Source: Amoebophrya sp. A120
Lineage: Eukaryota > Protista > Dinoflagellata
DNA length: 64,000 bases
Assembly: GCA_905178155.1 (NCBI GenBank)
Contig: CAJINV010000003.1
Coordinates: forward strand, 8,786,179-8,850,178
Direction of reading: 5' to 3'
The translations under genes and the position numbers were made by a program. Below, in pieces: positions 781 through 58,800 of the stretch; within the stretch, counting starts at the first letter, position 1; the number at the start of each line of letters is the position of its first letter. Under the pieces are notes generated by a model, which was not told where the DNA came from, searched no databases, and worked only from the letters and a program-made list of their open reading frames with translations.

Positions 781-785
781 TACGT

Positions 786-1919
786 CTACCCGATGTTGAG
801 CCGAAACATGTCGTTCACAATGATGAAACTTCCGGCGTGCGGTACTAAGTGAAACACCTGGGCAAACTTCAGCGGATTCTCCTCATCGTCTACTTTCAGG
901 TCTCCCGTCACAAAAATGAAGACGCCATTGTTGAACGGGTTCGGCTGGAAATCCACCTGGGGGGTAAGCACGATCATGACATCGGTAAGTATTTCTAATA
1001 TTTGTATTTCTGGTTGTTGCTGCAAAAATAAGGACTGCACGCGCACAAGAATCTTTTAAGATTATCAAAGTAAATGAGTCGCGCTTGTATCCACACGTCC
1101 TACTTGAATAGCAAAAGAAAGTGTTACCTTTGTGAGGGTATGCTTCACTTTCGAGAACTTCAAATTGTTGAGCTTGTTCATTATCGCCTGCTGTCCCTGC
1201 AGCGCTTCGCCCTCGAACGTCATCATGGAATCTGGCGTGTACCTGAAAGAGAAGCGACACTATAGCATAATGATAATCATAATTCTCGAAGGTAAAGCAC
1301 CTGCTGCTGCAGGAAGCAGTTATGGTCGTTGAAGAGAGGATGGAGTCGTTACACGAGTCAAAGTCAATGAAACTGAAAGAAGCAATTGTACAATTGTTGG
1401 AGCGCGACCCGATTCGTGTCAAAGGTATTGTAGTAGTGCTGGCAGAACTGCTATATCCCACAGAAAAGCGTACCCAGCAGACCAGAATCGTCAACGCCGC
1501 TTTGAAATTTACTACGGAGACTTCGTCACTTTACTACGTTTTCTTTCCCCGCGTGGCATGATAAGCATCTTCGCAGGGACATACTCCTACCTCACTCCTG
1601 CAAAGCAGTGCCAGTGCCAATCGATATCTATCTCTATGTTGATGCCGCTGCGTTTACTTGTTCTACATGACAAGTACAGCACGTCGAGACTGTTGGAAAT
1701 AATACAACTCCAGAAAAGGTATGGTGTGGACGGCTTGTGCTAGTGCTTCTTTTTGTCTTTTTTTGTCGCCGGCGGAGGTCGTCCCCCACCTATTTATATG
1801 TTTTGTCTGTCGGAGTAGTTCTTTCGTTGCGCTTTTAAGTACAACGATGGCATGCTGGGTATACTTTTCTGTGTGATATGCTCGCCAATCTGAGCAAACT
1901 GCGGGTTGATCTGCGACAT
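786..1919 (-). CDS. NTF2: Nuclear transport factor 2, 4 exons (approx. 1919-1879, 1448-1392, 1242-1128, 956-786)
   Basis: Spliced translation MSQINPQFAQIGEQFCQHYYNTFDTNRVALQQLYTPDSMMTFEGEALQGQQAIMNKLNNLKFSKVKHTLTKVDFQPNPFNNGVFIFVTGDLKVDDEENPLKFAQVFHLVPHAGSFIIVNDMFRLNIG* is a typical NTF2. Introns 957-1127 and 1243-1391 are GT-AG; intron 1 is a TIR-type element. Confidence 0.95.
1454..1878. mobile_element. TIR/DR introner (NTF2 intron 1)
   Basis: TIRs TATCACACAGAAAAGTATACCCAGCA / TATCCCACAGAAAAGCGTACCCAGCA; sense DR GAGCA/TAGCA; removing element+5 joins IGE-QFC. Confidence 0.9.
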
Positions 1920-4032
1920 TTTCTTGCCTCGGCTGCCTCGTGATATGGATGTGTCAGGCGGAAAGTCGCAAAATATAAAGATTGAAACGCAAATGGAAAC
2001 AAACTATCTGCGAGGCACAACGAAATGCCTGTCACGAATGGATGGCATTCGCAATTGCGGACGATAGTTCTGGGGCTCTTTGCAATACTAGAGGGAGCAG
2101 GAGCACGACAGAAAGAGTCTTTGATGCCACAAACAGCATGACCAATTGTTTTTTTTTTGATGGAGCTCCTGACATTGACATTTCTGGTGCGCCGCTGAGC
2201 AAGTCGCAGTCGGCGCCGAACGAACTGAAAATGGCGTGAACAATTTCGTGCGTGACTTCTTTACATTTTCACTTTGACGATTTCCCACCTGGCAATCCCA
2301 TACGTGAGGTCCTTCTTGTACTGTGCCCACCGGAGGATCGTTGCAGGAAATTGGTTGTGGTAAAGCCCGAAATGTGCTATTTCAAGATCGAACTTTAATT
2401 CGCTTGCACGCTCGTGGTCGTGGGGTCTTCTGTTATCGGAAAACTGCTGCAAGGAAGAGCAATTCCGACAAAAGACTGGAGTAGACTTTAGATACCGCTG
2501 TAGTTTTGTCTTCAAAAAATGAGTGCTGCAAAGAAACGGTCTGCCGGCTCACATGAAGATGATGACAATGATGATAAAAAGCGAAATAAAGGGCCGAAGC
2601 AATGCAGGGAATTATAAGCTAAGCAGGGCTTCAGCTACGTAAACAGATAATGGAAAGTCAAAGTTGAAACGGGAGCACCGAATAAATAAAACGCTCCACC
2701 AGCGTTGCAAATTATAGAAGTAGTCGCTGCACCGGTACGGCTAAAAATGTAATGAAAGTTTTCTATCGCGAAGAGCTTTGTTCGTTTTGGACCTGTTAGT
2801 AAAGAGAAAGGGCGGACAAAATACAACACACCGCATCAGTTATTCAGCTTGTACATTTTGCGGAAGCAGCTTTACTGCTAGGAACGGAGCAACTTGAAGA
2901 AGACCCAGCGTGCCATATAGTATCTGAGTAAGAATCAATCTGATCATGCCATTTCTCGGGTAGATCGACAGCACAGTAACGCCAACGTGATCAATCTTGT
3001 TGCAATGGCAAGACTATTTGCAATGGCTGCGACTCCTGCGTGGTCAAGAAATACTAACTGAATATCCACCGCGAGCACGACGACCACTCGCGATCATCAT
3101 CGCATATATTAAGATAGAGATCTGACACTTCAACAAATTTCTGTCTAGTATTAGTTCTGATGCAAACGGAAAGACTTCGCTGGTGCACCAATAAAATTAT
3201 AGCCTGAGGATCCGTGCTGGCATTTACATTTTCAGTTCGAATTCCGTCGTTGTACAGCTTAGTAGCAGTGGTTCACCGGCGGCACTGGTATAGCAGCACC
3301 AGCAAGAACCATGACAGGCTAGTTGTATCTCAAAGATACTAAACGACAAAAACTGAATCTATCAGATGAATATGCAGTCCGACTAGCACTACAGCATTTG
3401 CTTGCTACTTTTTGAACGATTTGAGGATCTACGCCTCAAGAATCTGGCTGTTCTGGATCTATCTTCCTAGTGATTAAGTATTTCGATTTCCTATTCGTTT
3501 TCTGAGTTTCCTCTTCTTTAGAAACATGACCATAAACGTGGTTTCGATTCGACGAGGAGTGAAAGCGTGACTCAAGAGCAGTCCCGCCCCATTATATCGA
3601 CGAACTACAGCCTTCTGGCGTGACAGTGACTTTTGACCTTCGTAGGATGGGAACACCAACACAGTCACGACGACCTGCGCCGCCAAGTGCTTTGGTCTTG
3701 CATCATTCGTTCGCGAGATTTTGCAAAGCTTGCGCTCCACTTGATTCGAGCAAGCAGCACAAAAAAAAACGGAGTTAGTATACAATTAGAAAAGTGGACC
3801 AGTACTGATACTTTCTTGTTTTCTTCTCCACCTATGCTATCCATGCAAGTTGTGCAAGATTGACTGTGTCCTATGCTTAAGTTCTGCTCCTATCCACATA
3901 TTGGTATTACAATCCACCGTGGAGGAGGAGCTAGAAACCGTAGAGCACTCCAACTCATGATCATGATGTACATGTATGATTCTAATCCTTTTAAATATTG
4001 CCCGCCCGGGACGTATAGATAAAAAGTGAACC

Positions 4033-7000
4033 CTATATTGATGATTTCGTTTGCGAGGGAGATGCTAGCCCGGGCACCGACTTAGAAAGGCTCGGGCTGC
4101 TCGCAGTCGCTTTTGATAGCGAACTCCCGGGGAGAAACAGCGGGACGCTGGGGACGTCGCTGTTCGTGTTCCGCGTAGAGGTGGTTCGTTTTTGAGGCAC
4201 CGAGCTACCATCCTGGTGCCGCTCCACCACGTCACGGTGCGTGTTCTGGGTAAAAATCCGCTGACTCTCCAGCACCTGCTTCTCTGCCGCGAGCCTGTAA
4301 AATTTTGCCGCGAAGGAGTAGACGCGCAGCAGCGGCGTTTCCTGCTCCAACCCCAGCTTCTCTCGCTCGGCTGCGCTTATCCAAAAAAAAAAGCTTTACA
4401 TTCCCACATTCATAAGTATTGTGTTCATGTTGCGGATTCAGCATCAGCATGCACAGGACGAGATAGCTTGGTCTGCCAGAACTGGATCTGCATGACAAGA
4501 AAAGGAACAAATAAATGATGAATCAGGTGTATTTCATCTTCTACGTGCGGAGATGACAAGTTAAAGTGTAATCATGCGTTGTATGTAAGATTGCTGGTCC
4601 TGCGCATCTCTTCGTGCAGGGAGATTGTTCCCTGACTGTGTTGCCGTTTCTGCAACTAAACAGTGATGTGTTTACTGTAGCCTTTTTTTCTCTCCATAGC
4701 GCTGGACGGAACTATGCTGCTCCCACTCGACCCACGAAGCGTGTTGGGCTCAGGTCTCTTCTCGTCTGAAGATGCTGGGCCCGATGCTTTGCGTTCTCCC
4801 GCTTCAAACTCCCGCTGCTCATCCGGTTTCAGTGGCTTTTCCTCGTCCTGTGCAGACGAAGATCGCCCTTCGCGGCGCTCTCCTGTTTTTGACGTAGCCG
4901 TGGGACCACGTTCGGCGTCTCTTACTCCTGTGTTTCCCATAATACTCAGCGGCAGCTGCTCGGCGGAAAGAATCCCGCGCTGCGCGAGCCGTTGCAGGAG
5001 CGTTTCGGCTTTTGTAATCTTCAGCTCTAGCGTATGCAATGCAAATTTCCCACAGCACACGTTGGACAAAATAATGCATCACAAATTTAACGCGTGAAAA
5101 ACTTTTCAGTGCACTCTGTTTTTTGTTTTCTCACACGGAACAAGGAGCCACGTTTGCACAATGTGCAGTACGAAAGGAAATTCACTGTGCATACACCGCC
5201 TCCCAGTTCTCTTCTCCTATCGCGCTCATTTCCGCAGCCGCTATGTCGGAGCTAGTCCAGTTATCCAGATTCAGTGCCGCGCAGAGTTTGAGCACCTTCT
5301 GCTCGCTAAAGCTGAGCCGGTCGAAGTGTGTGAAAGCAATTCCGAGCACCCCATCAACTTCCAAGCTGTCGATTTCGTCGATACTCGCGGTAAAAGCAAC
5401 GACTTGTGCGACGTCTTTTGATGTGGATCGCTGCGCGGCGGGTGAGGCTGGAGGAGCATCATCGCTAAAAGGAAAATTATGATTATCCCTGTTGTTTCCG
5501 GGAGCCATTAGCCCCGACCGCCGTGCTTGGTGTTTCAGAAGACTGCGACGAGCGTGCAGGTTGCTGGAAAGGGTAAGTGAGCTCGGTGCACCAGCATTGG
5601 AAGGCGCGCCGCTGGGGCTACTGTTCTTCTGTGACGCAACATCCGCAGATGAATAGCTGAGATCATCTCGTCCTCCACCTGCGGCGCCACTACTTATGGT
5701 TCTCCCTGGTTGTTCCCCTATCCCTCGTGTCGTCGGGAGAACCGCAACTAAACGCTTTCGCACGAAGTGCTCGGCAAGAAGATTGATAAGAAAGGCATTG
5801 CCAACCGACATGTCCATCAAGTAATCTTTCACGTCCTCCGGGAGCTCGAGGCCCGCGCAGTCCTCGTGGAGCCACCGGGTGAGGCAATGACGAAAGTACT
5901 CGGTCGCCGTCTCCCGGGAGAAGTACTGCATGTGCACGAGGCCGTTGATACACTCCGCCTTCTCCTTCACATAGTCGAACCATGACGACTGCTGCAGCGG
6001 CCGCGTGCAGAGTACGAACACCAATGAACCCGCGTCCTGTGCTGGTCCACCCCCTCCGAATGTTTTCATCTGTGATGACGAGAGCAGCTGCCCTTGTTGC
6101 TGCGCCCAGGGATGTTGTTGCCAGTGTATGTTTTTCATCTGGTTGTGCATGTTATTGGCGTGGTCCTTCTTGTTGCTGGCAGCTGATACGAATGCCTGGT
6201 GCTGGGTTCTTGTGTTCATCATCTGTCGTGCCTTGCGGCGCTCTTTGAGGATAAAATTAGTCAAGCCGACGGAGAATTCGCCGGTGCGCTTGTCTTGGTC
6301 CTCAAAGAAGGCGGCAGATCGCTGCAGGTGGAGCAGCACCACGATGCGCCGGCGCCTGCTGTACGCGTCGAGGACACCAAGACACACCTGCATCAGGCGG
6401 TTCCGCCCGGTGTGCCGCAGATCACAGTCGGTTTGCGCCTTCACGACTGTGTCGCCAAATTATGCGAGTGCACAACGTACTATGCTGATCCTGGCCCTGC
6501 CCCGCATTTTTAGTGATGGGATGTTGCAAAAGCGCAACGATATTGAGTGCGGTATCATTCATCTATGTCTGCTATCGTAGCTGAACTAGAAGGGTGCAGA
6601 CGTCGAACTGCAAGCAGTCGAACTGGAACTACATTGCAAGTGATGCAGTCTGCCTCTGTGAGTTGACTTGTCAACATGGAAATCTCCGCGTGGCAGCTCT
6701 CCTGTAGTCGTGATTCATGCAGTGCACCACACGAGGGGAACGAGGGACGAGAGAACAAAAGGTTCTTGTGCAATCGGATACAAATTCAACCGAACACATT
6801 ACCTTGGACAGCAGCGGAAGCCAGACGCAGAGTTCCTCGTCTGCCAACAAGCCCGTCATAATTTCGCACATGTTGTCGCACTTCAGCCCCGTGCGCGCCT
6901 TGATCTCCTCGATCAAAACCAGATCTGCCCGAATCGCCTCACCCAGCTGGTTGAAAATTGTTTGCCACGGCAAGAATTGAACCTGTAGTTCGTTGTTGTG

Positions 7001-10000: not shown

Positions 10001-13000
10001 AAATTCCCGTGACGAAGAAACATGTGTTTATTTCGTACCATGTGTGACTGCGTTGGGTTCAGCGCGTTTCCCTCAAGGAGGAGAAAGTTTTCTGAATGAA
10101 GATTCTGTGTCCGGTCCCTAGTCCGGCGCTGGGCAAGTTTGCGCAGCGGTTCGAGGATCTCGTGCTTCCCCGTGCCAGGATCCCCCGTCACGACGGTGAC
10201 GCCACCACCCTGCGATAGTTGATCCGTGACGGCGGTTTCGAGCTGCACGTATTCAGACGAACGCAACCAAAAATCTTGAAGATTTTGGCTTTTTCCCGTA
10301 GAAGTAGGAGTAGCCCCTGCACTGCTGGTCGTGCCAGTACTCGATTTATTTGGTGGAAACGATGCAGCAGCAGCCCTTGTTCCCCTGGGTTCTTCGGGAT
10401 TCAAGATGGTTGCGCCGACGAGGACCTTTTTGTCGCCTACTTCTCGCTCTGCTTCCGTGCCATTTGCGTCAGGATGGAAGAGCGCGGATTCGCGCTTGGA
10501 CAACCAATCACGCAACAGGCGTCCCGTTGGGCGGAAGACCGGCACCGGGGCGGCCTTGCCCTTCATTTTGATCGGATCCAAGGCCAGCACCTCGATGTTG
10601 TTGTTCTGCAAGCAACGCGCCGTCTCGGGACAGGCGAGAATACCCCACTCCTCGCTGGCATTCCCCATCAAACGTGCTGCAAGATTTACCACGTCCCCCA
10701 ACACGGTATACTCGCGCCGCTGCGCGGTGCCTATGAGGGTGCGTAGCTTTTCCTCTCCTTGTCACGCAAAACACCAAAAACAAATCTTCGAAGGCTTAAA
10801 ATTATACATTTTACACTGTTCGCATGACAAGTTGTGGGACTGTAAAGAAAAACTCCCTGCAAAAAATCCAAATCGAAATAATTCTATATTGATTCAATAA
10901 GAACCTTATCGTGCCTCGGAAGCTGGTGCGTTGTTGCTGTTACTTCTGCATCTGTAGTTTCTGTAGAACATCTTCATGCCGTGGCCTTGCTAGTGAGGGG
11001 ACGAGGAGGGAAAAATTGTGGACTCTCATAGTGCCAATCACGCCGCACCACACCATTCCCGTGGCCACGCCGGCGCGGCCCTTCACGCCCTCCTCACGCA
11101 GGGTGTCCAGCATGCGCATAGCCGCTAGGGTGGCGCGGACCGGGTCGTCGCCGAAGTGGCTCAGCGGTTTCAACCCGAAACAACACAGCAGCAGCATACC
11201 CTTGTCATCCACCACAAACTTGTTTACGCTGCCTTCCAGCGCGTAGCAGCTCCGCTGACAGCAGCTCATCAGCAACTGCGTCAGCAGGACGCCCTCCGCC
11301 GACCTGGCCACGTCCGCGCCCGCCCGCTCTTCACTGCTGATAGACAGGAAGATCACACTGATCTTCCGCATCTCTTCCTCAAACCTCTCGTCTGCAAGAA
11401 TTGCACGGAACTCGGACATGGGGATGTACCGCGAGAGCATGGTCACGTCGAAGTCAGGGCTCGGTTTGTACACGCTTTGCGGGAGGTACTGTTCGGGGTC
11501 TGCGATCTTGCCCATAATTCTGTACCCCGGCGGCCCGTCCTTGACCGGAAGAGTGGGCGTCTCCTCGCGGCCGCTGAAGGCGTGCAGGGCTTGCTCGTAG
11601 ACCGCAAGGAACTCCGGGGACGCGCAAGTCTGCGTTGCCCGCGCGAGCGGCTCTGCAATTGCGATCTGCGGGAACGCGGGCCCGGTGGCGCAGTACTCGA
11701 ACCGGCCCAGTACCCCACCCAACTGCAGCAGCGTGCAGGGCCCGTATCCCACTCCGATGTGGAAGGAGAAGTACACGCCGCTGACCGGCGTAGGGTAGTG
11801 GCTGAGCTTCTGGTGGATCTCCTGGCAGCAACAGGCGGCGCGGAGCGGTGCTGTCTTTCTGGTCTCCATGTCGTCCTCCGGGTCTACGACTTATCATGCG
11901 GAAAAATCTCACCCCTATCCGCAGCCAAACGCACTGCATTTTTCTGGCCCGAGGTTTCTTATTGAGTATAAATAGATAGCCTTGTGCTGCGAGACGACAA
12001 CTGCCAAAAAAATATTATGATCAAGGCTCTGTGGACAACTTAAACTTGTATGGGTGGAGACATTAACTTGATGAACCATTTTTTCCAACAAAGGTCCAGC
12101 GACACGACAAATGATCTCCACCCGAGCTGGGAGACAGGGATGAGGGACAGGGATTTTTCCTCAAGATATGGGAAACATGATAGTTACCGCGTCGCCGGAG
12201 AACTTGATAATGTCGTATGAGAGTGCAATACTGCCGCGCCTCTTCATTTTTCATGTGGAATAACATTAAGAGAAATTGTTCCAGTAGCGCCGCCCTCATT
12301 GCATAAAAAATGTGCCTAACTGAAGATGTTCGTGATGAAGACAAATTTCGAAGCCAAAACAAAAGCACTCCAAGTTGTCAAGTTTGGATTTGAATGCTGG
12401 TGAAGTAAGGTCATTCTCATTTCAGCATCTGCTGTCTTATTCTGTAACAAATTCGACATTGACCATCATCCTGTTCTTCACGGTAGTCATGGCAACAGTC
12501 GCTCGAGGGGGCGGGCAAGTGGTGCGCTCTCGTATGTCCCCGTCCCACCGCAGGACGATGTCAATCAGGCGGCGGAAGAAACTGTTCAGAAAAGTGCCCA
12601 CCTGTTCCGTGCCCCGGTTCAGGTTGGTCAATTTCTCGGTCATTGCGGTGAAGCCTGAGGCATCTACAAAAACCAACACGGACTCCGTGGACCCCACCAC
12701 CGGGTTCGGCATCGGCTTGCCCGGCGCAAAGTCGATGACGTTGTTCACGATCTTCCCCTTGCCGATCGCCTCTAGAATCAGTCGCGGCAGAAAGGAGGTG
12801 AACCGCTGCACGTCTTTCTGTGCGGCCGGAGGGATCGAAATCTTCGGAATCTTAGTCGCGTCGATGCGCCGCTCCGCAGCGAATATGTACCAGCGCCAGT
12901 TGTCGCTCTCGTACTTTTGTTCCATAATGGTACTTTCCCGTCTTCGTTCCTCTTCATTGCGTTCGGAGAGAAATCGAATCAAATACCGCAGCAACACGGA

Positions 13001-15903: not shown

Positions 15904-15946
15904 AGATCGAACGGGGGCGGAGGTCCCGTTCATTACATGGGTACAA
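15904..15946 (+). repeat. 43-bp hairpin-containing repeat, identical to 19060-19102
   Basis: AGATCGAACGGGGGCGGAGGTCCCGTTCATTACATGGGTACAA; stem GAACGGG/CCCGTTC. Confidence 0.9.
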
Positions 15947-16210
15947 GAGAAGCTTTAAATTTAATTTTTAGGCAAAAGCACACCGCATTTGCCAAAGAGC
16001 GATTTCCTTTTTCTTTTTGAATCAATGGAACACGTTCCTCTATCCTATCGGTGAAGTCATAGCGCGGAGCAGAACCGACGGCGCACGACGGAAAAAGTGT
16101 GGTCGGAGTACGGTCTGGCAAGTAGTAAACTTAGTCACGCATAGATACGACCAAAAAAAAGCGTTCGCTTTTCTCCTTCCCCAGTAAAACTTCCTTCGGT
16201 AGCATTGATT

Positions 16211-18999: not shown

Positions 19000-19102
19000 C
19001 GGGGGTCCCGTTCATTACATGGGTACGGGGGCGGAGGTCCCGTTCATTACATGGGTACGAGATCGAACGGGGGCGGAGGTCCCGTTCATTACATGGGTAC
19101 AA
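19000..19102 (+). repeat. Three tandem copies of GGTCCCGTTCATTACATGGGTAC
   Basis: Directly visible; the last copy extends into the 43-bp match to 15904-15946. Confidence 0.9.
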
Positions 19103-42800: not shown

Positions 42801-45800
42801 AGCCGTTGCCCCTCAAATCATATGGAAATCCTCTACCACCTGTAGCCATCTCAAAAAGTGCACAACTGCTACTGGGCTTGCACCTCGCAGTGTCAACATT
42901 CTAAATGAGTGTCAGAAGTGCCGTCAAAACTACAAGTATAACGGTGCAAGGCTATAAAGAAACATGCCACGTACTAATGCAATTTCGAAAATAATGCAAC
43001 AAGGGCAAGATTACGGCGACCGCGAGCCGCAGTCTGCTGCAGCTCTACTTTTCCGCGTCCTTATATATAGGTTGTATTAATTTTTTGTCCTATACCCAGC
43101 AGAAGTTTCGATTTATAGAAATTTCCCACTTTGCGAACCATGGAATGGAGGTGGTAAGCCTGACTTTCTCTACCATAACTGATTGAAGTCATCAACTTGG
43201 CAGTAAGTCCAGAGCATCGACACTGGCTGGGACACCGCGGACTCCTGCCGGACATCCGATATTTGCACGAGCGGCGACTGGGCATCTGCGCGCACGCTGA
43301 AGTGCGCCTCGAGATCCGCTTCGCTCTGGTCTGGTAGTGGATGGTGAAAGGCGACCGGAACCACGCGAATGTGCCACTGATGCACGCCGCGCCGCTTCGG
43401 GTTCACCTCAAACTTCAGGTCCACAAAACCCCGAGGGCCCACTGCACCCTCGGTTTTCTCAAATACCAGGGAGTCGCGAAACAGCGCCGCGCGATCCTCG
43501 TTGCGCTCCAGCGGGTCCTTCGGGGGCTGTGGGCTGGGAGGGTAGCTATACCGGTCCGTGATGCGCGGGGAATTCAAAGGCGTGCTGTGTTTAGTTTGTC
43601 CTCTCGTCTCTAGTAGATCAATCGCATTTAGATTTATTCATTTTCATCGTGCTTTATTAGTCGCCTGAACGTGAACCTGGACCTGCGCATTCCGAGAAGA
43701 GCGGTTCTCATGCATTGTGTCTTCGAGCGCCCTTCAGCTACTTGCAGGCGAAAGTCAAAGGATAAGGAAGGTATTCATTTCTAATTGTCATTGTGTTTAT
43801 CTTTATAATTATGTACTTACATTATAGTTGGTCATACGTATAATTTCTGTTCTCGAACGGACAGGAAGACCAACGGGTGGACGCCCGACGAGCGCGCAGG
43901 CACACACAAAAAAAAGCAAAAAAGAAACGCAACGCGCCGCGAATACCTCTTGCCGTCCCTATGACTTCCCTTCGGAGAACGCATTTGTTCAATGCTTTTT
44001 CTGAGCGGACTCCTATCAAGTTCCAGTCGTTCAAATTCAAATTGAACCTCGAGCTTGAACCGTACTTCCTGATTGCTGTTGTTGAAGAGCCGCACCTCCG
44101 CCTTGGTTTTGTCTGGATGCGTGGCAGTTAGCACACCTAGGTCCACTGACGAAGTTTCGAGAGACAGTGCCTGTCATAGATGCAAAAAATGGATATAATG
44201 CCGAAAGCTTGCATGTAGTCTTCTCCGTACTTCATCATCAAATGTTGCACTACTTCAGTGCCTCTTCCTTTTTGACGTCAGCAGACACTACTTCACCAAC
44301 TTTGCTGTGCCAATGGGAAAAAAAGTAGTTAATTGACGCTGAACTATGACTATCTTCCTTTTTGGTTATTATTTTCTGAACAAACTACAAGTACAAAGGC
44401 GTCTGTACCGGTTGTTGGCCGTGTCCTACTAGTTGAATGGCATAGGGTTTTCTTGCCGTCGGGTGCGGTGCAGGTTCTTCGACACAGAAATCTCCTTCCC
44501 CGGCAACATCCTCGATTGCGCGCGGCCCAAAGAAATTTCGGTCCTGTATTGCAAAGACCCTCTCTCTATGGATGTGTCAGGTACCGAGGCATCGTCACCT
44601 GAATGGAGTCGATCTTTATACATTTATCTAACATGCAAAAAAACGTCTGCAATAGGAGCCGCTGTTAGCTTAGTGGTCGGCGTCGGCTCGAGATATATAC
44701 CTTCAAAGCTATTCGACGCGCATTTGTAGTGCCTCGGGCTATTTGGAGAATGTAAAAATAAAGAGCACTATGCAAAATTACGCTTTAATGCTAGCCATCA
44801 GCCCAACTTTTACTCTTGACCGTGAAAAATAGCTGAAATAAAATTCCGATTCGCATGCTGCCATATCAAATGTATGATGTCACTTGCAAGAATGCAGTCA
44901 CTCTTTGACGCCTCGCATTGAATGCATCGCAAAATATTTCGTCCAGTGAGCGACCTACCCCTGCGCCTGACACTTCCATACTTGTCGTCGTCGGCGTATC
45001 GCTTCTCAGTGGCGTAGACGCTTATCGCGGTTGCTATCTGCCCGGCGGCTTCTGGCGTAAACTTAAGGGCAATCTGACTGCTTTCAGCTGGTCCGAGTTG
45101 GCCTTCCGCCTCCTCAACGTGAAACACGCTGCGAAATCGTGCTGGTATCCTTACATCATAGCTGATGGGAATCTCCGTCCGGTTTCGAACCTTTTTTAAG
45201 TGCGTTTTTTTTTTTTAACCGTAGGCACGCACTCACCCCGCGGGGTGGCGTCGCCGGAAAAACCAAGAACAGCTCTGTTTTTCAAGATTCTCTTTCTCAT
45301 CGTCCTACTATATATATTAGAATCAAATTACTCAAGCGATCCGTGGCAAGATTAAAGCGCTGCAACCAGCAAAACCTCCATGCGTTTGCACATTAAAAGG
45401 GATGACATTTTTGCCCTTGTTGTTACCATAAGGGCTCGCGTAGATTTCAAGCCTTGGCAGGTCAGCGGAAAGGTAAGCAGATTTTTCACATCCAGCTTCG
45501 TTTGCCAACACCTCCCCTGCACGTGCACGTAACGGTACTCGGTTTCCTAGTATCAAAAGGAATAGCGCCCCTACCACCACGGAGCTGCGGGCAACGTTTT
45601 CTATGCTTGTTCCGCAATAGGGATGTTGAAACGCATGCAGCTACTTGCTTCTTCGAGCGTGGAGGCCCCGTTGCTGCTGTTTATATATAGCATGATGCTC
45701 GCAAGTGCTTAGTTTAGTACATGTAGAGCAGTGATGCACTATCAATGAGAAGCGTCACAAGGTAAAATGTAAGCCGTCTCTCATCTCGTCATGTCGAGGC

Positions 45801-48800
45801 TGCATGGTTCGCCTATGCCAAGACTCTAACGGCATCTTCAAACTAGGACAGCAATTATGTTTTTGTATGTTTCGCAAAAATGCCTTGCGATGCAAGCATT
45901 TACATCAGCCGCACCAGGCTTAGGGGCAAGGCGCTTTTCACTTTGATGCCTCGTAGTTGACAACGATTGGAATTTTTGCTTTGAACTCGGCCTCATTTTG
46001 GATTTTCGTCGGGGAATATCCAAGAAAAAAGCGGTGCTATTGCCGGAAGCGCAGGAAAGTGACATCATGATCACTGCCCTTCTCGTTGTCGTTCTCGTAC
46101 CCTGAGCATATTTTTAGTCACATGATTCATTGGCTAAGCTTTTTGTAAAACTACAAGCATGCACTTTTCAGTGAGAACAATGCAAGCGAATACACCATGC
46201 ATAGTTATTCATAGCTAGCACGTGAATCACAATGATATGCTAGCTATCGTTATGCATGCTGGTCACCGGAATCCGAATCACTGTCGCACAGCGTTCCTCC
46301 ACGCCGAGACACTGGACCCCAACATGATGTGCTGCTCCTGTATAACAGTTTTGTACAACTAACACACGTTTTTTCTTGCATAGAGCAAACTCCACCACGA
46401 TCGCGTGAAACGAGTGGGGGTAAATGCAGCCTCGTTTGGGGTAGCAGCTGAATGGTGTTTCCTCGCCGAGGTTTTCTCCGAGCGCCGGTAGGATCCGATA
46501 CACCATCTTCGTGTCCCCACAGTTCTTGATCAAGAAGACATGGTAGCTCCCTGAAAAGATATTTGTATTTCTATGTAGCGAAGCTTGAGGTGCTTGATGT
46601 GGTTGTGGAGCAGATGATCCATTACTAATCACTGCCCTCCTCAATAAAATTACAAAAAAATACTGTCTGCAACAAAAGTCTTCGAGCCGTCAACATAGCT
46701 TCGAATCCAAGTATGCACAAGGCCAGATCATTGGTACGTTGCATGAGCGCGCAGGGCTTCATTCGCACGATGTTGTTGGAGTCCGAGACTTCTACTTGGC
46801 AGTCATCACGATGGTAGCCCATTGTGTGGCCTTGACAGTACAAATTCAGGCAGGTGGGTGGCGTGAATCTTTTCAAATTGACGAGATGAAAGCTTCGGTT
46901 TCGCTTTGGGTACACGTAGCACTCCAGCACTTCGCCGTCAAAGTTCATTTCCTTTCCGGGCCTGTAGGTCACCTGAAACTCCATCTCTCCTCGTGCTGGT
47001 ATCTCGACGCTGTTTGGGTAGACGGAAAAGGTGGCGAGATCCAGTTCCTCAAACTTCGCCACGCTTGTGGCTTGTCGCGTCTCATTCACGATCATCCATA
47101 CGGCGATCACCTTTGATTTGATTTCGATTTTCAATAGATTACGAACCGAAGCTGTAGTTGAAGCACTGAGTATTCAATTCGCGCGCTACAGTGCGCCAAC
47201 AAAGAAAGAACTACTACCCGGCACCTGTACATAGACATGCGAGTTCGCAATGCTGCAGTTCGATTAGTCTCGTCGCCAGTATCTTCTCGAAGCGCGCCTT
47301 TACTACATCCACACAGTTGCAATGCCAAAAATCTCGAAAATGCTAGTACCTTCTGACTCGTGTTATTTGTGACGGTTACTGTGCGGACTCCGGGCTGACC
47401 GAAGAAGTCAAGCTCGTCGGGGGTGAGACAAACGTCCTTCGGAGGGTAGACACACTCCAAAAAGTATGAAAGTAGAAACAGAAAGCCAGTTGTCATCTAT
47501 TAATTTATCATGGTGTATCATTTGCTCGGGTTTGCTGCGGATGCGCTTGTGCGCCATTGGTTTCTTCCCAGAGCAAACGCAAGGCGTGCTAGGGCTAGTG
47601 CTTATCACATAAAAAAGTTTTTACCTCAGTCTATACACATGCAGGCCTTTTATCTACCGCGAAAATGTAGATCCATATCTACATGGCGCTAGATCATTCA
47701 CCAAGACAATGAGACACCAAGTAAAATAACTGACTGCAATTTTCGCGTCTTTCGCTTTGATAGGAAGCTTTGTACGTTCGAAATCTCTGGGCGTTTGAGC
47801 GTCGCCGGAAAAACTCGCTCTAGGAAGTTATGGTACGTTTTCTTGGGGGATACCGAACGCACCGGACTGCCATGATCACCTGCGTTGGCATATTTTTTTT
47901 CTCATATCTTCTATAGGGTTATCAATCACGATGGCGGCATCTTCATCGTCATCTCTCTCTTCTTGCAGTTACAACATGATAATCTGTGAGCAATATTATG
48001 CAGTAGGTACTAGTGAAGGCAGTGCGAAGCTTTTGTCTGGCACAGCCACAGCCACATCAGACAAGACAAGACTCCGACTCGGGCATTGAAATACAAAAAT
48101 AGCCGCGGTTTTTGATTACGCAGACCCGCCGCGGGGAGTAGGTGTATGTGAAATATCATTCTGCATAGTGTGGCTGGCAATCAAAATCGGAGTCGCGGCC
48201 TAAACTCACATACTGAAATGGAAACTTGAACCTTCGGAATTGAAAGAAAAAAGACTATTCCCCAAGCTACGATCCTCCCGACCCCTCCATCTGGGCCTGT
48301 GCACTGAAGGCCCGAATGCGGTCCCACACCTGGGGCATTGACTCTGCGTTTTCGTTTTGGGCTGGCCTCAAGAAAGGGACGACACTTTAGCTGACTCACA
48401 TGTTCTTTGCGTCATTGAGCCACGCAAGAAGTGGCTCGGGTGTGTTTTACACGGAAGCCGCCCCAGCCGATGGTAGACTAGACCCCGCAGGAGCTTCTTT
48501 TTTGTCTAAGAAGGTGGTCGAGTAACACTACCTACCGCGAACACAAAAAGCATAAGCTGCAAAAATACCATCGTGCTCTTCCTTCCCGGGAGTTCCTTTG
48601 GAGAAAGGCGTCACACCTCCGGCAAGTGATGGCGCGTCGGGGGAAGCGTCGTCTGAGCGTGTTGGTGAGTTTGGTCTTGAGTCGTACTCCGGATAACCCT
48701 GCAGCCGCATGCGATGCCACTGCGTGACATTATCGATCTGTAGCACAGCGGGTCGCTGCGCATCCGTGTACCCGGTCCCAATCAGGTCGACGGGTACTGC

Positions 48801-51470: not shown

Positions 51471-52820
51471 TCTGATAACAAGCTACGCGGGTTCTGCACT
51501 CTATAACGCGCCCCGTCCGCGGCTGCTTGCCTTGCGCGGCGAAAAAATGGTGCCGGTGGGTAGCGCACCAGAGCCTTCCGCCCTGTCGTTGCGGGGACGG
51601 TTATCGTCGCTCCACTGCTCGGAGGTATCGCCCGCCTCGACCGGTCGTCGCAGTGCCGCTTCAAGATGGAGGAGGTCCTGCTGTTGACAAAAGTCTACAG
51701 GAGCAGCCGACATCTCTCTCGTCTCATCTGCTTTCGTTGCTTTTCTTCCGCCGACCCGTGATTTAGACTGGAGGGCGCCCAGACTTCGTTTCGAATGTGA
51801 AGCTCGCTCGCTCTGATGTTCCTCGGTCTTGTTGCCTCGATATCCTCAAGAACATGGAGGGCCCAATTTTACTCATCAAAATCTTCATACATCAGTCAAC
51901 CTCAATCTACAACCTGTGGAATGTTTCTTCAGAAGTTCTACACGAGCAAAAACTTGCAGCGAATTCGTTCACATAGAAGCGCGAATCCGCGCGAAAGCGA
52001 AGACCAGATTATAGCACTGGGTGGCCTTTTGTTTTTGATCTCCGAGTGCAACATGAATTTCGCTCACGACGTCAAGGCACGAGTACGATTGTCACAAAAC
52101 TGCAGCTCTGACAAGTGGAAAATCTCGTCACGCTCACGATAAAGCGCGCGAGTGGTGTGCACCAGGCCCGGCTTTTCCTCACGCTGAGATGATACCGCAC
52201 CCGCCCAGGGTGTGGGAAGCCCACCTGGCAAGAGGAAGAGCAACCCGCTCATCTTCCGGAGACCTTGTATATTAAGATCAAGAAGCCGCCGAGATGCTCT
52301 CGGACCAGTTACTCGCTCGCATCTCAAGGATCTTGGGACGCGATGCGCGCAGGGTCGCTCATCTTCTCATCTTCTGCGACTGCGCGTGCGCCTCGAGTGT
52401 GTATGTAGTTTTGTCTGTCTCCAACTTTATTTGCCAGGCAGAGAGGGTGAGGGACGACCTCTTCGATACTACAACTACTAGTATTCAAGGATTATAAATA
52501 TCACTCAAGCCTAGCCCTCATGACCACGCTCATCGAGTTTCATCACTGCGAATCAGACCTCTCAGGCATATCGCCCTGTCTCGAAAAGCTACAAGCCACC
52601 TCCTGATGATCAATCGTGGATTCATAAGTAGACAAGCAACAAAACATGTACAGAGGTAGGCGCTGGCTAGAAGCGGCATTAGACATGATGTCCTGCTTGC
52701 TGAGTCTCATGGACAAAACGTAAACGAAATTGCGTTCGGGGTCGTGACCGCGACGGACGATGAACAGAAGCTTCGCTCCCGCCGGCGTCTCATGCAATTT
52801 TCTTTTTCCTTGCACTTTAC

Positions 52821-55800
52821 CGAAATTTTCGTTGTAGTTGAACTACTGCTCCCCGAGCTCGAATCCATCTATTTGCGTACGGTTATGCAGCAGCTCTGTG
52901 CCGGCGCCTCATCTAGCTTTGTTTTGCTGATGTTTGGTGACGAGAAAATTTTATGGATTTGTCGTCCCTAATGTGCAGCAGGTGGGTGCGGTGGCTCTTG
53001 AAGCTGTTTGGCGTATAAAAATTCTTGTCGTTCTTATGTTTGACTTGCTCTTCTAGCGCGCTCGCATAGTAGTTCTGAGTTTGTTCTTTCACACAACAAC
53101 TCCTGTTCTGCTTGTGTTTTGATGTTACTTTGCCACTGCCGTTCCAGACTTTGAAAAAAATCGTATTGCCTGCGTGCACTCTGAGGCAATTTCTTCTTGA
53201 AATCTTCCTTTGTATCGCGATTGCGATTCGTTTTCCGCTTGGGTTCAGAGTCGCGCTCCCCGGTAACTTTATCTGGCAAGTCTTGCCTGGTCCTCGACCT
53301 TGTTGTGGTGGTACTAGTCTCGTCCTGCAGTTTATTCTTATTTCTTCTGGCGGCCCTGTGCTCGCGTCTGCTTGACAGTTCCTCTAACGTTCGCGAATCC
53401 TGTTCCTCCTGCATATGGTCAAAATTCTCTTGTCGGATTGCGACTCGTGTGGGCCCGTGGCAGACCGCTTTGCCGGAGTTCTGACTTGTTGTCGCCCCTC
53501 CAGCAAAACCGGTGGATGAAGATGATGATGTTGGAGGGGGGTTTGTATTGCTTGCACTTGCAGTTGCTGTGTCGTTCTCGTTTCCATTATGATTATTCAT
53601 ATTTTTTCTTTTTGTCGTAGTGATCATCCCCGTGCTAATCTTTCGAAGGGGAGACGAGGAGTCCAGCTTCGGCCGCTGTCCGGGGCGGAGTTGCTGCGGT
53701 GGTATGTTGCTGTGGGCACAACGTGATCGAGATCCGCGGTTCTCGGTGGGAATGGCTCCTGTAGGTGTCCCGCAGAACTTCGGGCTGCAAAGATCCGGCG
53801 ACTCGTCCTCCGGAGCGAGAGCGCCTATCCTTGACCGTACCGCTGAAAAATGACGACTCGATCGATGCTCACCTTCTGGTCGCGGATCCTGCAGGACAGC
53901 CGGCGCACAGCGGGCTCGCAAGCTCGACTTTTGAGAGCCATGCGAAACGCGTCCACGCGCAATTTCCTCGAAACTGGCTGTGCGTGGCCGCGGCGATTCC
54001 GATTTCAACATATGTAATTGGTCAGCACTAAGAAGATCCACGACGTCCACCGCCCCCTCTCCATCTACTTCTTGATGTGATGGTGCTCTGTGCCGTTGGT
54101 CCGCTTGGCCGCGACTCCTGGGAAGCATTGTCAGAGGTTGATTGCTTTGCTGTGCCGTGACGTGGTCCTTTTTTTTACCGCCAGTATTTGTATTTGTATT
54201 TGTATTTGTTTTCCTTCTACTTTCGAGCTCCAGATCGACAGCGGCAGCAACGTGGTCGTCAAGAGCACGGCTTACAACATTCGAGCGATCGTCTTCGCGG
54301 CCGTGCTGGTAGTAGCAGTTGCGAGGACCACGATCAGTGAATGACGAAAATTCTTCACTAGCGAAAGGAGCGGGCCAGGCTCGCGGGCATGTAGTGGCAG
54401 TGGCACCTGCCAAAAGCGGCTCGTTCAGGTACTCGCCACGTCGTCCCCCCTGCTTGCGCAGTGCTGCAGTGCGGGACTGAGAGTGAGAATCAAGAGTCCA
54501 CTGAAAGGATGAAGCAGATGAGCAGGATGAAGAGGCTGGTGGAGCGGTGTCGTTTCTTCTGCTTGTGTCGATGATTCCAGACAGCAGCAGGTCCGGACTG
54601 CTGAACTTCGACGTCAATCCTGACGAAAGAATCGGCGATGGAAGGCTCATGTGATGCATGCCTTCGCAAAGTGCTGCTTCCGGGCGAGCCAGGTCCTCCT
54701 GGTCTTGGCTGGAGTGAACCGCGAAAAGCTCCCTGCTCGTCTTTCGGCCAGAAGAACAAGCAGTGCTGTAGTCACGGAGAGTCTGTGCGAGTTCCTGCTC
54801 CACAAAATGGAGATCGCGCACCTCGTGCGAGGCGGTCTGCAGCCTTCGCGGAACCACGACACTAGTGACGCCAGAAGTTGTAGCCACCGCGGTGCTGCAG
54901 TGGCAGGCTTGCTGCAAACCAACATCAGTAGACATGTTTTCCTCCTGCGCGGCGGGCGGAGGCGCATGCTGTAGGCGTTTCGTTGCATTTTTTCCGGCAA
55001 CAAAATAAATCTGTGGCGCTTTATTGCTGGAGGTCCGAGGACAACTCGAAGGCTGCTCATGGGTTTGCGGGCCTGACCCACGACGAGGACCGCTTGATGC
55101 GACTTGCGTGTCTGTGTACGAGTACGGGGAGACCGCTCTTTCTTTTTTACAACTTGTCGAGGATTCGACAAACGAACCAGTGCAGCTGGCCTCAGGATCA
55201 CGACGATCATGATTGCAGTCATCTACTAGTACGACCTCATCAATGTCTGCTTCTTGAAATAGGTCGTCCTTTTTCCTCTTTTGCGCCGTCCCTGCGTCTG
55301 GAGTCCGTACTTTCCCAACATCAAACCGTCTTTCGGCATCAAAACCAGCGATCGACCCGGGCGCATTTCGGCCGCTGCGTCCCGTGGTGGTCAAAGGACT
55401 GCAATGCGTCGCTTTGGCGATGGCAGCAGGCTGAACACCTCTAGGGTAGCCTCCGTTTCTTTTCTCATCCCGATCTTCCCCGTGAGGAGGCGGCCCGTTC
55501 GTGGCGGTATCACTTAGTTCCGAGACCCCGACCCGGACCCGCTCATCTACTCCCTCGTCCTCCATATTCTCCGCAGCTGTCCTTGCCATCATCTTTGCTT
55601 GCAACCCAGCAGACCCACGCGACTGCGTTCCTCTTCCTGCAGGTACTTGTAATATTCCATTACCTTCATGATCAAGCTCGTCTCGTGTTTTTTCCTCAAA
55701 CAGACGCTCGAGCAGGTTCGCGCTTCCCGCCACCTTTGCCTTTCCTCGCTGACGCTTCTCTTTCTGCACATGACCAGAGATGGTATCACGCGCCAATGCA

Positions 55801-58800
55801 TCCTGTGCAAAAGTATCTGCATCATCGTAGTCAATTCGCAGTCGTACAAAAAATTGCGATCTTTATCTACCTGCCAAACACAAACCAGCGGTCGTCTACG
55901 TCTATACCTAAATACGAGTAACAGGCTCTGTTATCGTTTTCTTCTTGAGCGATGAAAAGCAAAACAATAAAAGCTGTAGTACTATTGGCATTACAGTTAC
56001 TAGTTGCGCGATGCAGGAGCTTTTGCAATGCATACAACACGAGGGCTTCCTCGGACTGTCCCTTAGCCAGAAACGTCGCCTGGACTTCCTCTCCTTGATT
56101 CGGTGTCACACGTCTGCAGCTCGAAAGTCCGACTGTCGCTCCTGCGGCTGCGAGCTGCTTCTGGCTCACCACAACACTGCAGCTTTTCCTCGTTTGCTCT
56201 GTGCGGCCCCGCCTTCTGTTGAACAGGTCATCTGCTTCTTCTTTCGCCCCTATTGCCCCCGCATCGGATGTTTCATTATTGTTCTTAGCCTGCGGAAAAA
56301 AGCCAGAATTTTTCACGACGACGTTGCCGCCAAGTAGACTCTGACTTGCATGTCCTCGGGCGGAATCACCGCAACCACGAGCTGCTTGCGTTTCCGTTGC
56401 ACCGTTTCCATCTCCAGTGTGCGGCATACCAGAAGAGGGAACAGATCCGAAGGCCATAAGCTGGCTCTGGGTACGACAGGGACTGTAATCTATCGGCGAT
56501 GGCTCGAGATCACTGCACACGGAGGAGGCAGTGGAAGTCGAGCTCGCGCCCTTGATTGAAATCGTGCTGGGGAATGGGTGCGGAGATCCACCGTCGTCTT
56601 CTGCCGTGCTAGGTAGAACCTCGAGCTCTGTCTCTGCGTCAAAAAAGTCCTGATCCACAGTTATAAAGTGTCTGGTCTTGGCTCCGCAGGGACCGTAGTC
56701 GTTTTTCCTAATGTGAGAGTGAGTCTTAGTCTTTGCTTTTGTGTTGTAGTAGTTCTGGGTACGTTCTTCTTCGCACGATGTCAACGAGAACGGAGCAGGG
56801 GCAAGTGTTCCTTGTGGAAGATCTTCACCCGTTCTTTCAGCAGCACACACGTCACGGTCAACACCGCTTCTAGCACTAGAAGCCAGGGGCTTCGCGCACC
56901 AGTTTTCTTGGAAAGGCGCTCGGTAGCGTGCTGGCATCCTCGCTCTCGCAGAAGTGTCGCTTGCAATATTGAAACGCTGCTCGCTTTTGTAGTTTTGCTT
57001 TCGACCGCAAGCGGTTGTGCCTCCCACCATTTTCCCCGCGCGATGAGAGCGAGCGGATCGGGATCCACAAGACTTCACAGCGAGCGCAGTTGTTGGTGCT
57101 GGCTGACAAGACCACTGAGGAGCTTCTCCATTGCACTCGTCTTTTGCCTTTTTCTTCCTCAGGCAAAAGCTATCAAGTTCAAAATGATCATCGCTCCTCG
57201 CACGCCGGTGACGAGCTCGTTGTCTTCGTCCTTCCCTGAATTCATTTCCCATCGCTCCTTGAACAACGCCAACGAGCTCGCGTCTCATCTTCTGCCTGAT
57301 CACCGCACTCCCGCCGCGCGGCTGGCCCAATTTTGCAATCCGTGGCGGATAAACGATCTTCGAAGGACGCTCCTGCAACGCCTTCGCCTGTGCACCAGTA
57401 GTAGAAGAAGAAATCAGATTGATCATGATCTGTTTGCCCTGTGATTGCGCGGCTTCACCCTGGCCTGCTTCTGAAGGCCGCGTTTTATTAGAACCAATGG
57501 ATGACTCTGTCGCTTTCGTGTCTTGGTACTGCAGCGCGGAGGCGAGCACTGTTTCGCTTTCGGTTTCGCCCGCTCGGCTTTGCGGCATGAAAGTGAACGA
57601 TGACGCAGGCGCGCGTTGGATATGGATTGCTGGAGATATTACACCTCCAAGAAGTCCCTCCTCGTTCATATTCTTCTTTGCCTTGTTCAGGACAGTTCGT
57701 ATTCGATAGCTTTTGGGAATTTCCCTCTGCAGGCAGTTCCCTGCAGCTGGCATTGACGAAGCGGAAAAGGCCGCCCCTGGCGGTGGTATTGAGTCGCGGG
57801 CGTCCTCCCTGGTTTGAAGACGCCGCGCTTCAGTTCGGATAGCAATAGGCACTGTTTCACCAATATGACATGTGTGTTGTAGAGACCCGCTCCCACACGA
57901 TGTTTCTGAATTTTTCGGCTCGCAACTTGCCTGGTAACTTTCTTCACTTCCGCCCCCACCCGCCAGGAGCAGCTGACGGATACAGTACTCCCGCGCCTCG
58001 TGCAAGTCCTGCTCGCAACTGGTCGCAGTGACCGAGAGAGTCCTCTTCGCAGGCACTATATTTGACTCTCGCTGCCACGATTGGAGATGCATTTCATCTG
58101 AAAGTTCCTGCAATATTTGGAGCACGGGTCGGGTGAAGGTCACGCCGTGTTGCTCTTCGTTTTGCAAGACAGATACGGTCGTGCTTGCAGCGCTTAGAGG
58201 AAATAAGTGCTGAGGTGGAACGTGAATAGAGGTTGCAGGATCATGAAGATGATGACTGCCGTCTTCGTTTCCTCTTGGAATGTCAGCGGCCCCGGTGTGC
58301 CGGCTGTGAATTATCGGTCCAGGGACGCCGATGTCGCACGATGTTCTGCCCTCTTGCCCATTAATAACCAGGTCGATCTTCTCGTCATATTCCACAATCT
58401 GCTTGTGAATTGATGGCGCACGAGGCATCGTGGCAGAAGTATCTTCACGATTACGACAATCATCAGGACCCGGCACAGAAATTAGATTCATTGTACGAAG
58501 TTCATGTTGATTTTGGGCAATAATCTTCGAGTGGCCGCCCTCGCCCCCTCCGCCACAACTCTTCCCCGTTTTAACGGCTGCATGGGGTGCCTCACGGCGC
58601 GAGGGCGAGCCGCCCGCGGTGGCCCTTTTGCTTCTGGCGCCCGCGGCGTGTGACCCTCCAGTTCCCCGCACCCAGCGGCCCTGCGATATTCCGTTAGCTG
58701 GTGAACAACCTGCACGCGGCGCGGCCATCGGAACGGTGCCGCCGTTCCTCTTCGTGGCATTTTTCGACTTGCGCTTTTCCGCAAATCGCGGTCGAACGGT

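What the first reader, a model, noticed from the sequence alone, without database searches (positions are those of the whole stretch)
1454..56034. Window-wide system of non-canonical introns made of TAT...ATA inverted-repeat elements with 5-nt direct repeats
Seen: about 37 elements of 150-550 nt interrupt coding sequence. Each has imperfect TIRs starting TAT (rarely CAT, TAC or TGT) and a 5-nt flanking DR. Deleting element+5 nt restores the frame and conserved motifs (DFGSQ, GISGGVDS, EPLR, HPFPGPG, GDIIKFSGDA), and most have no usable GT-AG. They coexist with normal GT-AG introns in the same genes. Established: IR/DR non-canonical introns ('introners') are reported for Amoebophrya genomes, with an unresolved splicing mechanism. 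Inference: these are MITE-derived introns removed by a second, probably hairpin-guided, splicing route.
Basis: partly seen in the sequence, partly recalled or inferred. Interest (0 to 1): 0.88.

Follow-up and report, generated by a model that had tools for sequence, protein, structure and literature searches.

The report
Amoebophrya transposon introns, fixed cut register
This DNA matches the marine parasite Amoebophrya A120, whose hairpin-ended, likely transposon-derived introns are already published; transcript-like sequences here lack them exactly, and one cut position fits 16 of 17 such junctions, which suggests they are likely removed by a relaxed version of the normal splicing machinery rather than by a separate route.

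Summary
Real, and already published. A GMP-synthase exon is 100% identical to an Amoebophrya sp. A120 protein. Farhat 2021 describes these introner elements in A120: TAT-start inverted repeats and 3-5-nt direct repeats. I list 41 elements. RNA-like contigs skip 26 introns: 9 GT-AG and 17 not; 16 of the 17 equal element+5 nt. One overstatement: the 5-nt repeat is perfect in only 8 of 27 verified elements. Added here: decayed repeats fix the cut. One register fits 16 of 16 junctions, intron = N-TAT...ATA-NNNN. Introns therefore begin N-T-A, like local canonical GTA (12 of 13), and the published top A120 motifs are all NT-NN. Ends pair in 24 of 27 (14.3 bp against 0.8 shuffled), but 3 lack predicted pairing and there is no G-U bias. 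Best reading (0.55): a relaxed major spliceosome aided by the stem. Rival: a separate hairpin route (0.3). The termini resemble IS3EU/GingerRoot, but the duplication is 5 bp, not 6. No transposase was found. The scan noted similar introns in other genomes.

The parts
1454..1878 (-). Introner element in NTF2 gene (intron 1450-1879 at register -1)
   Evidence: RNA joint; element+5; NTF2 label
1944..2302 (-). Introner element upstream of the likely NTF2 start codon (5' UTR, inferred), perfect 5-nt repeat
   Evidence: RNA joint
4378..4698 (-). Introner element, cyclase gene
   Evidence: RNA joint
5033..5193 (-). Introner element; junction allows only registers -2/-1
6461..6780 (-). Introner element; no end pairing predicted
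10732..11030 (-). Introner element in cyclase domain; a GC-AG reading is also possible
11892..12168 (-). Introner element; repeat decayed to 1/5; allows only registers -2/-1
12216..12534 (-). Introner element (TAC start) splitting the GDIIKFSGDA motif
19602..19934 (-). Introner element in GMP synthase; register 0 excluded by RNA and by conserved Asn591
20035..28842 (-). 8808-nt GT-AG intron of GMP synthase
   Evidence: P0001 mapping; loose end at 28840 matches sequence near 20005-20030
20054..28459 (.). Possible 8.4-kb element with degenerate TATA-start inverted ends; no flanking duplication seen
   Evidence: end alignment score 56 against shuffle max 35
23635..24350 (.). 716-nt TAC..GTA element with perfect 5-nt repeat, inside the long intron
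24488..27265 (-). Nine elements (24488-24726, 24744-25041, 25067-25326, 25450-25778, 25844-26147, 26243-26521, 26556-26804, 26851-27027, 27042-27265) that split a predicted 190-codon ORF starting at 27443
   Evidence: not covered by either RNA lay
28989..29293 (-). Introner element, GMP synthase
29374..29672 (-). Introner element splitting HPFPGPG
29762..30083 (-). Introner element splitting EPLR
31260..31573 (-). Introner element splitting GISGGVDS; family shared with 25844-26147
31614..31765 (-). 152-nt introner element of a highly repeated family
32479..32754 (-). Introner element, GMP synthase
32790..33232 (-). Introner element with TGT-type 3' end
33432..33884 (-). Introner element with TGT-type 3' end
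34417..34606 (-). Introner element, perfect repeat
34701..34992 (-). Introner element splitting DFGSQ
35051..35356 (-). Introner element, GMP synthase
37643..38078 (-). Introner element (TAC start), CFAP65-like gene; allows only registers -1/0
40145..40693 (-). Introner element (TAC start), 549 nt
40921..41253 (-). Introner element
41586..42074 (-). Introner element; weakest stem (-3.2 kcal/mol) yet removed
42821..43177 (-). Outlier element: removed with 10 extra nt (42812-43178, TT..AG)
44567..44980 (-). Introner element
45551..45948 (-). Introner element (CAT start); reads GC-AG at register -1
46017..46382 (-). Introner element; allows only registers -1/0
47465..47762 (-). Predicted element; of extras 3-7 nt only +5 leaves an open frame
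   Evidence: no RNA joint shown
51841..52194 (-). Predicted element; frame test not discriminating
55799..56034 (-). Predicted element between two long ORFs; frame test not discriminating

Best explanation
These are the published introner elements of Amoebophrya A120: short, likely non-autonomous DNA transposons with TAT-start inverted ends that are missing from transcript-like contigs together with 5 flanking bases, likely cut one base before the first TAT and four bases after the last ATA, likely by the parasite's ordinary spliceosome with relaxed end rules and help from the terminal stem. Step 1 (shown as anatomy, inferred as process): insertion duplicates 5 bp of target. Step 2 (shown): element+5 nt is removed, so frame and protein are restored whatever the element's length. 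Step 3 (deduced from junctions with decayed repeats): the mRNA keeps bases 1-4 of the upstream copy and base 5 of the downstream copy, so the intron reads N-TAT...ATA-NNNN. Step 4 (inferred): the inverted repeat thereby supplies positions +2 to +5 of a 5' splice site (N-T-A-T-G/C, and GTAY or GC whenever N is G). The stem holds both ends together and would set the 3' cut by distance, standing in for AG and perhaps for U1, which Farhat did not find. Step 5 (inferred, weak): the mobiliser would be an IS3EU/GingerRoot-like DDE transposase.
For: Organism. Removal: 16 of 17 non-GT-AG RNA joints equal element+5, and so do 12 of 12 element introns from P0001 (one overlaps the RNA set). Register -1 fits 16 of 16; register 0 fits 13, -2 fits 14, -5 fits 5; P about 6e-4 under a uniform -5..0 null, before correcting for my choice of register. 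Register 0 would turn Asn591 into Asp; Asn stands in 111 of 119 homologues and Asp in none. At -1, +2 is T in 26 of 27, +3 is A in 27 of 27 and +5 is G in 19 of 27; canonical introns start GTA in 12 of 13. Farhat Table S4: all 9 predominant A120 motifs are NT-NN and all 9 A25 motifs are TT-NN; A25 repeats start TTA plus two purines, so N-T-A would fit both strains. Farhat found 83 of 89 spliceosomal proteins, and U2, U4, U5 and U6 in A120. Ends pair in 24 of 27 (14.3 bp against 0.8 shuffled and 0.9 in 11 GT-AG introns). In another assembly, 27 of 47 TAT-ended pairs chosen without regard to flanks have an exact 5-nt repeat.
Against: No lariat, branch point or snRNA pairing was seen. The first base and last two bases are free, which is far from known spliceosome rules (recalled knowledge). 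Only five junctions discriminate the register, and a mix of registers cannot be excluded. The outlier 42812-43178 breaks the 3' distance rule. The N-T-A match may be a coincidence of the transposon end. Table S4 motifs depend on how the aligner placed ambiguous junctions. Runs X1 and X3 are only guessed to be RNA, and raw-read runs gave 3, 2 and 0 reads. No DNA run was laid on 1-20000.
Confidence: 0.55

Rival explanations
1. One reading: a second, structure-guided machinery (as proposed for euglenid nonconventional introns) cuts at fixed distances from the terminal stem, leaving a 1-nt 5' and 4-nt 3' overhang, and ligates the exons.
For: Strong end pairing in 24 of 27; free terminal dinucleotides; fixed geometry around the stem. 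In euglenids the stem pairs +4..+6 with -8..-6, also with a longer 3' overhang, and the introns leave as circles (review PMC11282704). U1 was not detected in A120.
Against: 3 of 27 have almost no predicted end pairing yet are removed. No G-U over C-A preference on the sense strand (15 against 20, p 0.5). The N-T-A start is shared with canonical introns.
Confidence: 0.3
2. Sequence recognition without pairing: an adaptor binds the TAT-N7-A-run motif at the 5' end and its mirror at the 3' end, and the stem is only a by-product of transposon origin.
For: A+3, A-7 and A-5 are invariant in 27 of 27, and all 6 deviations in the terminal 3 bp are T-to-C on the sense strand, which break pairing. Stem strength does not correlate with repeat decay (rho -0.12, p 0.55).
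Against: Elements with repeats decayed to 1-2 of 5 still pair over 12-20 bp. Four unverified elements have G at -5. The numbers are small.
Confidence: 0.1
3. Artefact: reverse transcriptase skips hairpins between short direct repeats, or the elements are removed at DNA level.
For: A hairpin plus a direct repeat is the classic substrate for template switching (recalled knowledge). The RNA status of X1 and X3 is a guess.
Against: Four junctions have only 1 nt of ambiguity and a gene-oriented polarity. Skipped contigs have depth about 100-135 against 4.7-4.8 for retained ones in X1. The elements interrupt conserved motifs. The DNA-like run is unbroken over 34520-47478. The same contigs skip GT-AG introns exactly.
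Confidence: 0.05

Closest known systems
Introner elements among non-canonical introns of Amoebophrya A120 (Farhat et al. 2021, PMC7789003)
   Same: Same strain by protein identity. Repeats start with TAT, then 7 variable bases, then an A-run; direct repeats of 3-5 nt (5 bp in the Fig. S19 legend); repeated families; coexistence with GT-AG introns; hairpin model.
   Different: Nothing in kind. The Fig. 3 legend calls the border position unknown and variable; here one register fits 16 of 16. I could not see the figures, which may already show it.
Euglenid nonconventional introns (via review PMC11282704)
   Same: Terminal stem, duplication-like repeats, non-canonical ends, coexistence with normal introns, longer 3' overhang.
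   Different: CAG/CTG stem at +4..+6 / -8..-6 and pyrimidine|purine junctions, against TAT/ATA at +2..+4 / -7..-5 with free ends; circles are shown there and untested here.
Fritillaria borealis MITE-derived non-canonical introns (via review PMC11282704)
   Same: Introns with inverted ends and duplications, removed by an adapted spliceosome: the precedent for my best reading.
   Different: Fixed AG-AC/AG-AT ends there; no fixed first or last bases here.
IS3EU/GingerRoot DNA transposons (PMC10045372, PMC12730594)
   Same: TA..TA termini, TAYGG..CCRTA, occasionally TG..CA; here TAYGG at both ends in 7 of 36 elements and at one end in 5 more (read).
   Different: Duplications there are usually 6 bp, here 5 bp; no transposase in hand.
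A120 introner family 38 (Gozashti et al. 2025, PMC12130899)
   Same: Same genome; inverted-repeat-flanked introner with ORFs related to Copia/Gypsy elements, said not to be a known Ginger.
   Different: Its termini were not visible to me; no such ORF was detected in this window.

Membership tests
Amoebophrya A120 introner elements | Host is A120 | tested here: met
   136-aa exon 100% identical to P0001, named Amoebophrya sp. A120; all 17 exons map to the window
Amoebophrya A120 introner elements | RNA-supported intron without GT-AG | tested here: met
   17 of 26 RNA joints
Amoebophrya A120 introner elements | 8-20-nt inverted repeat starting TAT, A-run after 7 variable bases | tested here: met
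   Logos (A dominant at positions 11-14); pairing in 24 of 27
Amoebophrya A120 introner elements | 3-5-nt direct repeat at the borders | tested here: met
   At least 4/5 identity in 19 of 27, perfect in 8 of 27
Amoebophrya A120 introner elements | Repeated in the genome | tested here: met
   Three families (8 of 41 elements) within the window; 23 of 121 fetched loci hit window elements; 33 of 41 have no long match within the window
MITE (non-autonomous TIR transposon) | Constant-length target-site duplication | tested here: met
   Exact repeat in 28 of 76 pairs at 5 nt, against 0-4 at other lengths from 2 to 8
MITE (non-autonomous TIR transposon) | Cognate autonomous transposase | tested here: inconclusive
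   Window only: no transposase domain in 29 ORFs or nested exons; no genome held
IS3EU/GingerRoot | TA..TA (TAY..RTA) termini | tested here: met
IS3EU/GingerRoot | 6-bp duplication | tested here: not met
   0 of 76 exact at 6 nt, 28 at 5 nt
IS3EU/GingerRoot | DDE transposase of that clade | not testable with these tools
   No autonomous copy in hand
Major (U2) spliceosomal introns | GT/GC-AG ends | tested here: not met
   At register -1 only 1 of 27 is GC-AG and none is GT-AG
Major (U2) spliceosomal introns | Lariat intermediate and snRNP dependence | not testable with these tools
   No usable raw reads
Euglenid nonconventional introns | CAG/CTG stem at +4..+6 and -8..-6 | tested here: not met
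   TAT/ATA at +2..+4 and -7..-5
Euglenid nonconventional introns | Release as full-length circles | not testable with these tools
   Contigs cannot show it

The most novel reading that the evidence does not exclude
Amoebophrya's apparently lawless splice sites obey one rule. Canonical (G-T-A), A120 (N-T-A) and A25 (T-T-A) introns share a single N-T-A 5' site, supplied by the end of a 5-bp-duplicating, IS3EU/GingerRoot-like transposon. A U1-less spliceosome places the 3' cut four bases beyond the terminal stem with no AG, possibly branching at the invariant A at -7. Every insertion would then be a precise intron from birth, in either orientation and at any target.
Probability: 0.35. Interest if true: 0.7.

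Novelty: already known. Interest (0 to 1): 0.33.

Why it matters
The phenomenon is published for this very strain, so the finding as written adds no new system. What remains open is how tens of thousands of such introns are removed. The fixed register turns that into direct tests: where to look for lariats or circles, which bases to mutate, and how to re-annotate A120 junctions. If the N-T-A reading holds, it would show a spliceosome that needs neither G+1 nor AG, and explain why a symmetric transposon can be harmless at any coding site.

Tried and rejected
Bare TAT..ATA plus exact repeat count: not above shuffles; only informative with terminal complementarity. My first rule (cut exactly at TAT, register 0): rejected, it fails 3 of 16 RNA junctions and Asn591. 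G-U against C-A asymmetry as a sign of RNA-level selection: none. Correlation of stem strength with repeat decay: none. Nested ORF as transposase: no homologue for exon 1; the three hits for a 39-aa exon are a tandem-repeat protein, a WD40/STAND protein and a repeat surface protein; only weak Pfam hits; 5.2% of random removal lengths gave an ORF as long; the large element's ends and interior hit no fetched locus. The full-length A120 CFAP65-like protein was not retrieved (limit 2000 aa). Viral contigs: 0 matches to the terminal pattern. 98 of 121 metagenome loci had no BLAST hit to the window and were dropped as chance pattern matches. Rfam: nothing at gathering score. Run search: no RNA holder listed; raw RNA runs X8, X9 and X10 laid 3, 2 and 0 reads, so no test. 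No genome held. Paper searches for a later account of the cut site or mechanism listed none beyond those cited. Roy 2023, Henriet 2019 and Guminska 2018/2021 were not read, and the library lacks most subscription papers.
Full report
Identity and prior art. A 136-aa GMP-synthase exon from the window is 100% identical to P0001, which its sources name Amoebophrya sp. A120; other Amoebophrya proteins follow at 86-88%. All 17 exons of P0001 map to 19544-35432 on the minus strand. Farhat et al. 2021 (PMC7789003) report that over 60% of A120 introns are non-canonical. I saw passages, sections 10, 11 and 16, supplement passages and part 3 of 5, but no figures. They define introner elements with 8-20-nt inverted repeats and 3-5-nt direct repeats; in A120 the repeats start with TAT, then seven variable bases and at least three As. 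The legend of Fig. S19 shows 5-bp direct repeats. A related strain is mostly GT-AG and has U1 (PMC12005148, passages).

Observation. Other genes carrying elements are an NTF2 gene, a long cyclase gene (Pfam hit; joints link 3686-14608) and a CFAP65-like gene. All lie on the minus strand. Contigs of runs X1 and X3 are guessed to be RNA; they behave so, with near-zero depth at 8005-10005 and exact skipping of GT-AG introns. They show 26 joints: 14, where only 15 rows were shown and 138 were withheld, and 12. Nine are GT-AG. Seventeen are not, and two of those admit GC-AG. Sixteen of the 17 equal element+5 nt. Where table 8 allows the check, record coordinates run on across the joints, so no letters lie between. 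DNA-like run X5 has one unbroken contig over 34520-47478, and its 10,300 laid contigs pile up on the bins that hold elements. P0001 implies 16 introns: 4 GT-AG, one of 8808 nt, and 12 elements+5 nt. The bare pattern TAT..ATA with an exact 5-nt repeat is not above chance (16 against 13.7). With terminal complementarity it is (36 against 5-12, output partly cut). The repeat itself is often decayed: perfect in 8 of 27 verified elements, with identity by position 17, 18, 21, 23, 23 (positions 1-2 against 4-5, p 0.025). The set of 27 is 16 RNA-defined plus 11 protein-defined elements and leaves out the outlier 42812-43178.

Transposon anatomy. A degenerate terminal pattern fetched 121 metagenome loci. 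Twenty-three, all from one assembly, hit window elements, often over their full length; the other 98 were dropped. In those 23 loci I chose 76 inverted-end pairs without using flanks. An exact flanking repeat occurred 28 times at 5 nt and 0-4 times at any other length from 2 to 8. Among the 47 pairs with TAT[CG] ends, 27 were perfect and 11 more were 4/5; target sites look unconstrained. This supports a 5-bp target duplication. IS3EU/GingerRoot elements have TA..TA ends, TAYGG..CCRTA in fungi and occasionally TG..CA, but usually 6-bp duplications (passages of PMC10045372 and PMC12730594). Here TAYGG stands at both ends in 7 of 36 elements and at one end in 5 more. This is a lead, not membership. 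Farhat found no transposase in A120. Gozashti 2025 describe an A120 inverted-repeat introner with Copia/Gypsy-related ORFs that is not a known Ginger (PMC12130899, passages), which would fit an integrase-related mobiliser.

Where the cut falls. Decayed repeats break the ambiguity. Two junctions allow only registers -1/0 relative to the first TAT, two only -2/-1, and one -3 to -1. Register -1 fits 16 of 16, register 0 fits 13, -2 fits 14 and -5 fits 5. The chance under a uniform null is about 6e-4 before correcting for my choice among six registers. All 12 protein-defined element introns also admit -1. At 19602-19934, register 0 would give Asp where 111 of 119 homologues have Asn and none has Asp. 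So the intron likely reads N-TAT...ATA-NNNN, oriented by transcription. The outlier keeps the 5' rule but ends 9 nt after ATA, at an AG; a leftover 5-nt footprint is one possible reading. The Fig. 3 legend in Farhat calls the border unknown, but I could not see the logos or Figs S19-S25, which may already show this.

Mechanism. At register -1 the first base is free (A5, C11, G8, T3), +2 is T in 26 of 27, +3 is A in 27 of 27 and +5 is G in 19 of 27. Canonical introns here start GTA in 12 of 13. The last four bases are free, while A-7 and A-5 are invariant. Farhat's Table S4 lists nine predominant A120 motifs, all NT-NN, and nine A25 motifs, all TT-NN; A25 repeats start TTA plus two purines. One 5' site, N-T-A, would thus cover canonical, A120 and A25 introns. 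That favours the existing spliceosome, which is nearly complete apart from U1, with Fritillaria as precedent (review PMC11282704, passages and section 6; a tunicate follow-up appeared only as a listing). The stem is real. The ends pair in 24 of 27 introns folded at 20 C with 30-nt flanks: mean 14.3 bp against 0.8 for shuffles and 0.9 for 11 GT-AG introns. Own-end duplexes average -17.2 kcal/mol against -7.3 for crossed ends (36 elements). Against a strict hairpin requirement, three removed elements show under 1 bp of predicted end pairing, G-U pairs are not favoured over C-A mismatches (15 against 20), and all six changes in the terminal three pairs break pairing. Inverted ends are expected from transposon origin alone. 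I put the relaxed spliceosome aided by the stem at 0.55, a separate euglenid-like route at 0.3, motif recognition without pairing at 0.1 and artefact at 0.05. None of the catalytic steps is shown.

Nested structure. The 8808-nt intron holds degenerate inverted ends at 20054 and 28459, without a flanking duplication, and a chain of nine elements. Removing each with 5 nt opens 190 codons from 27443 with a CxxC motif, but 5.2% of random removal lengths do as well. No search tied it to a transposase, and neither lay covered it.

Verdict. The system is already known. Earlier scan notes report similar introns in other genomes; they are unchecked and were not used as support. The register rule and the IS3EU/GingerRoot resemblance are small additions that I did not find in the texts searched, and they make the open splicing question testable. 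Interest 0.33.

Noticed in passing
window 20054-28459: Possible 8.4-kb inverted-end element inside a GT-AG intron of GMP synthase, holding a predicted 190-codon ORF cut by nine introners (about 16 per kb of coding sequence); function unknown, no homologue found.
   Followed up: partly
window 22500-24350: Large direct and inverted array of an approximately 82-nt unit that shares the internal motif of the 31614-31765 family: a repeat built from introner pieces.
   Followed up: partly
window 6983-10038: 3056-nt GT-AG intron in the cyclase gene containing GC-rich repeats and a 17-18-nt tandem array at about 9218-9691, with the window's single N.
   Followed up: no
window 15855-18072: DOT1-domain ORF; run X3 holds contigs with 4 and 28 differences, suggesting a paralogue or another strain.
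   Followed up: no
window 42812-43178: Outlier intron: element plus 10 nt, TT..AG; possibly a 5-nt excision footprint shifted the 3' cut.
   Followed up: partly
window 42369-42661: GT-AG intron with a TAT-start, A-run motif about 10 nt inside its 5' end; possibly an old element absorbed into a canonical intron.
   Followed up: no
window 1944-2302: Element upstream of the likely NTF2 start codon is removed with the same +5 rule, where no reading frame would constrain it.
   Followed up: partly
window GT-AG introns: Canonical introns here have G before GT in 12 of 13 and G or T-rich exon starts (G 11 of 13, then T 11 of 13), so they too carry short border repeats.
   Followed up: no
window 53037-59094: Two long minus-strand ORFs (942 and 1075 aa) without Pfam hits, separated by the predicted element 55799-56034.
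   Followed up: no
L005-L121 (23 loci): One metagenome-collection assembly holds the same element families at roughly 67-89% identity, often several per 3 kb.
   Followed up: partly
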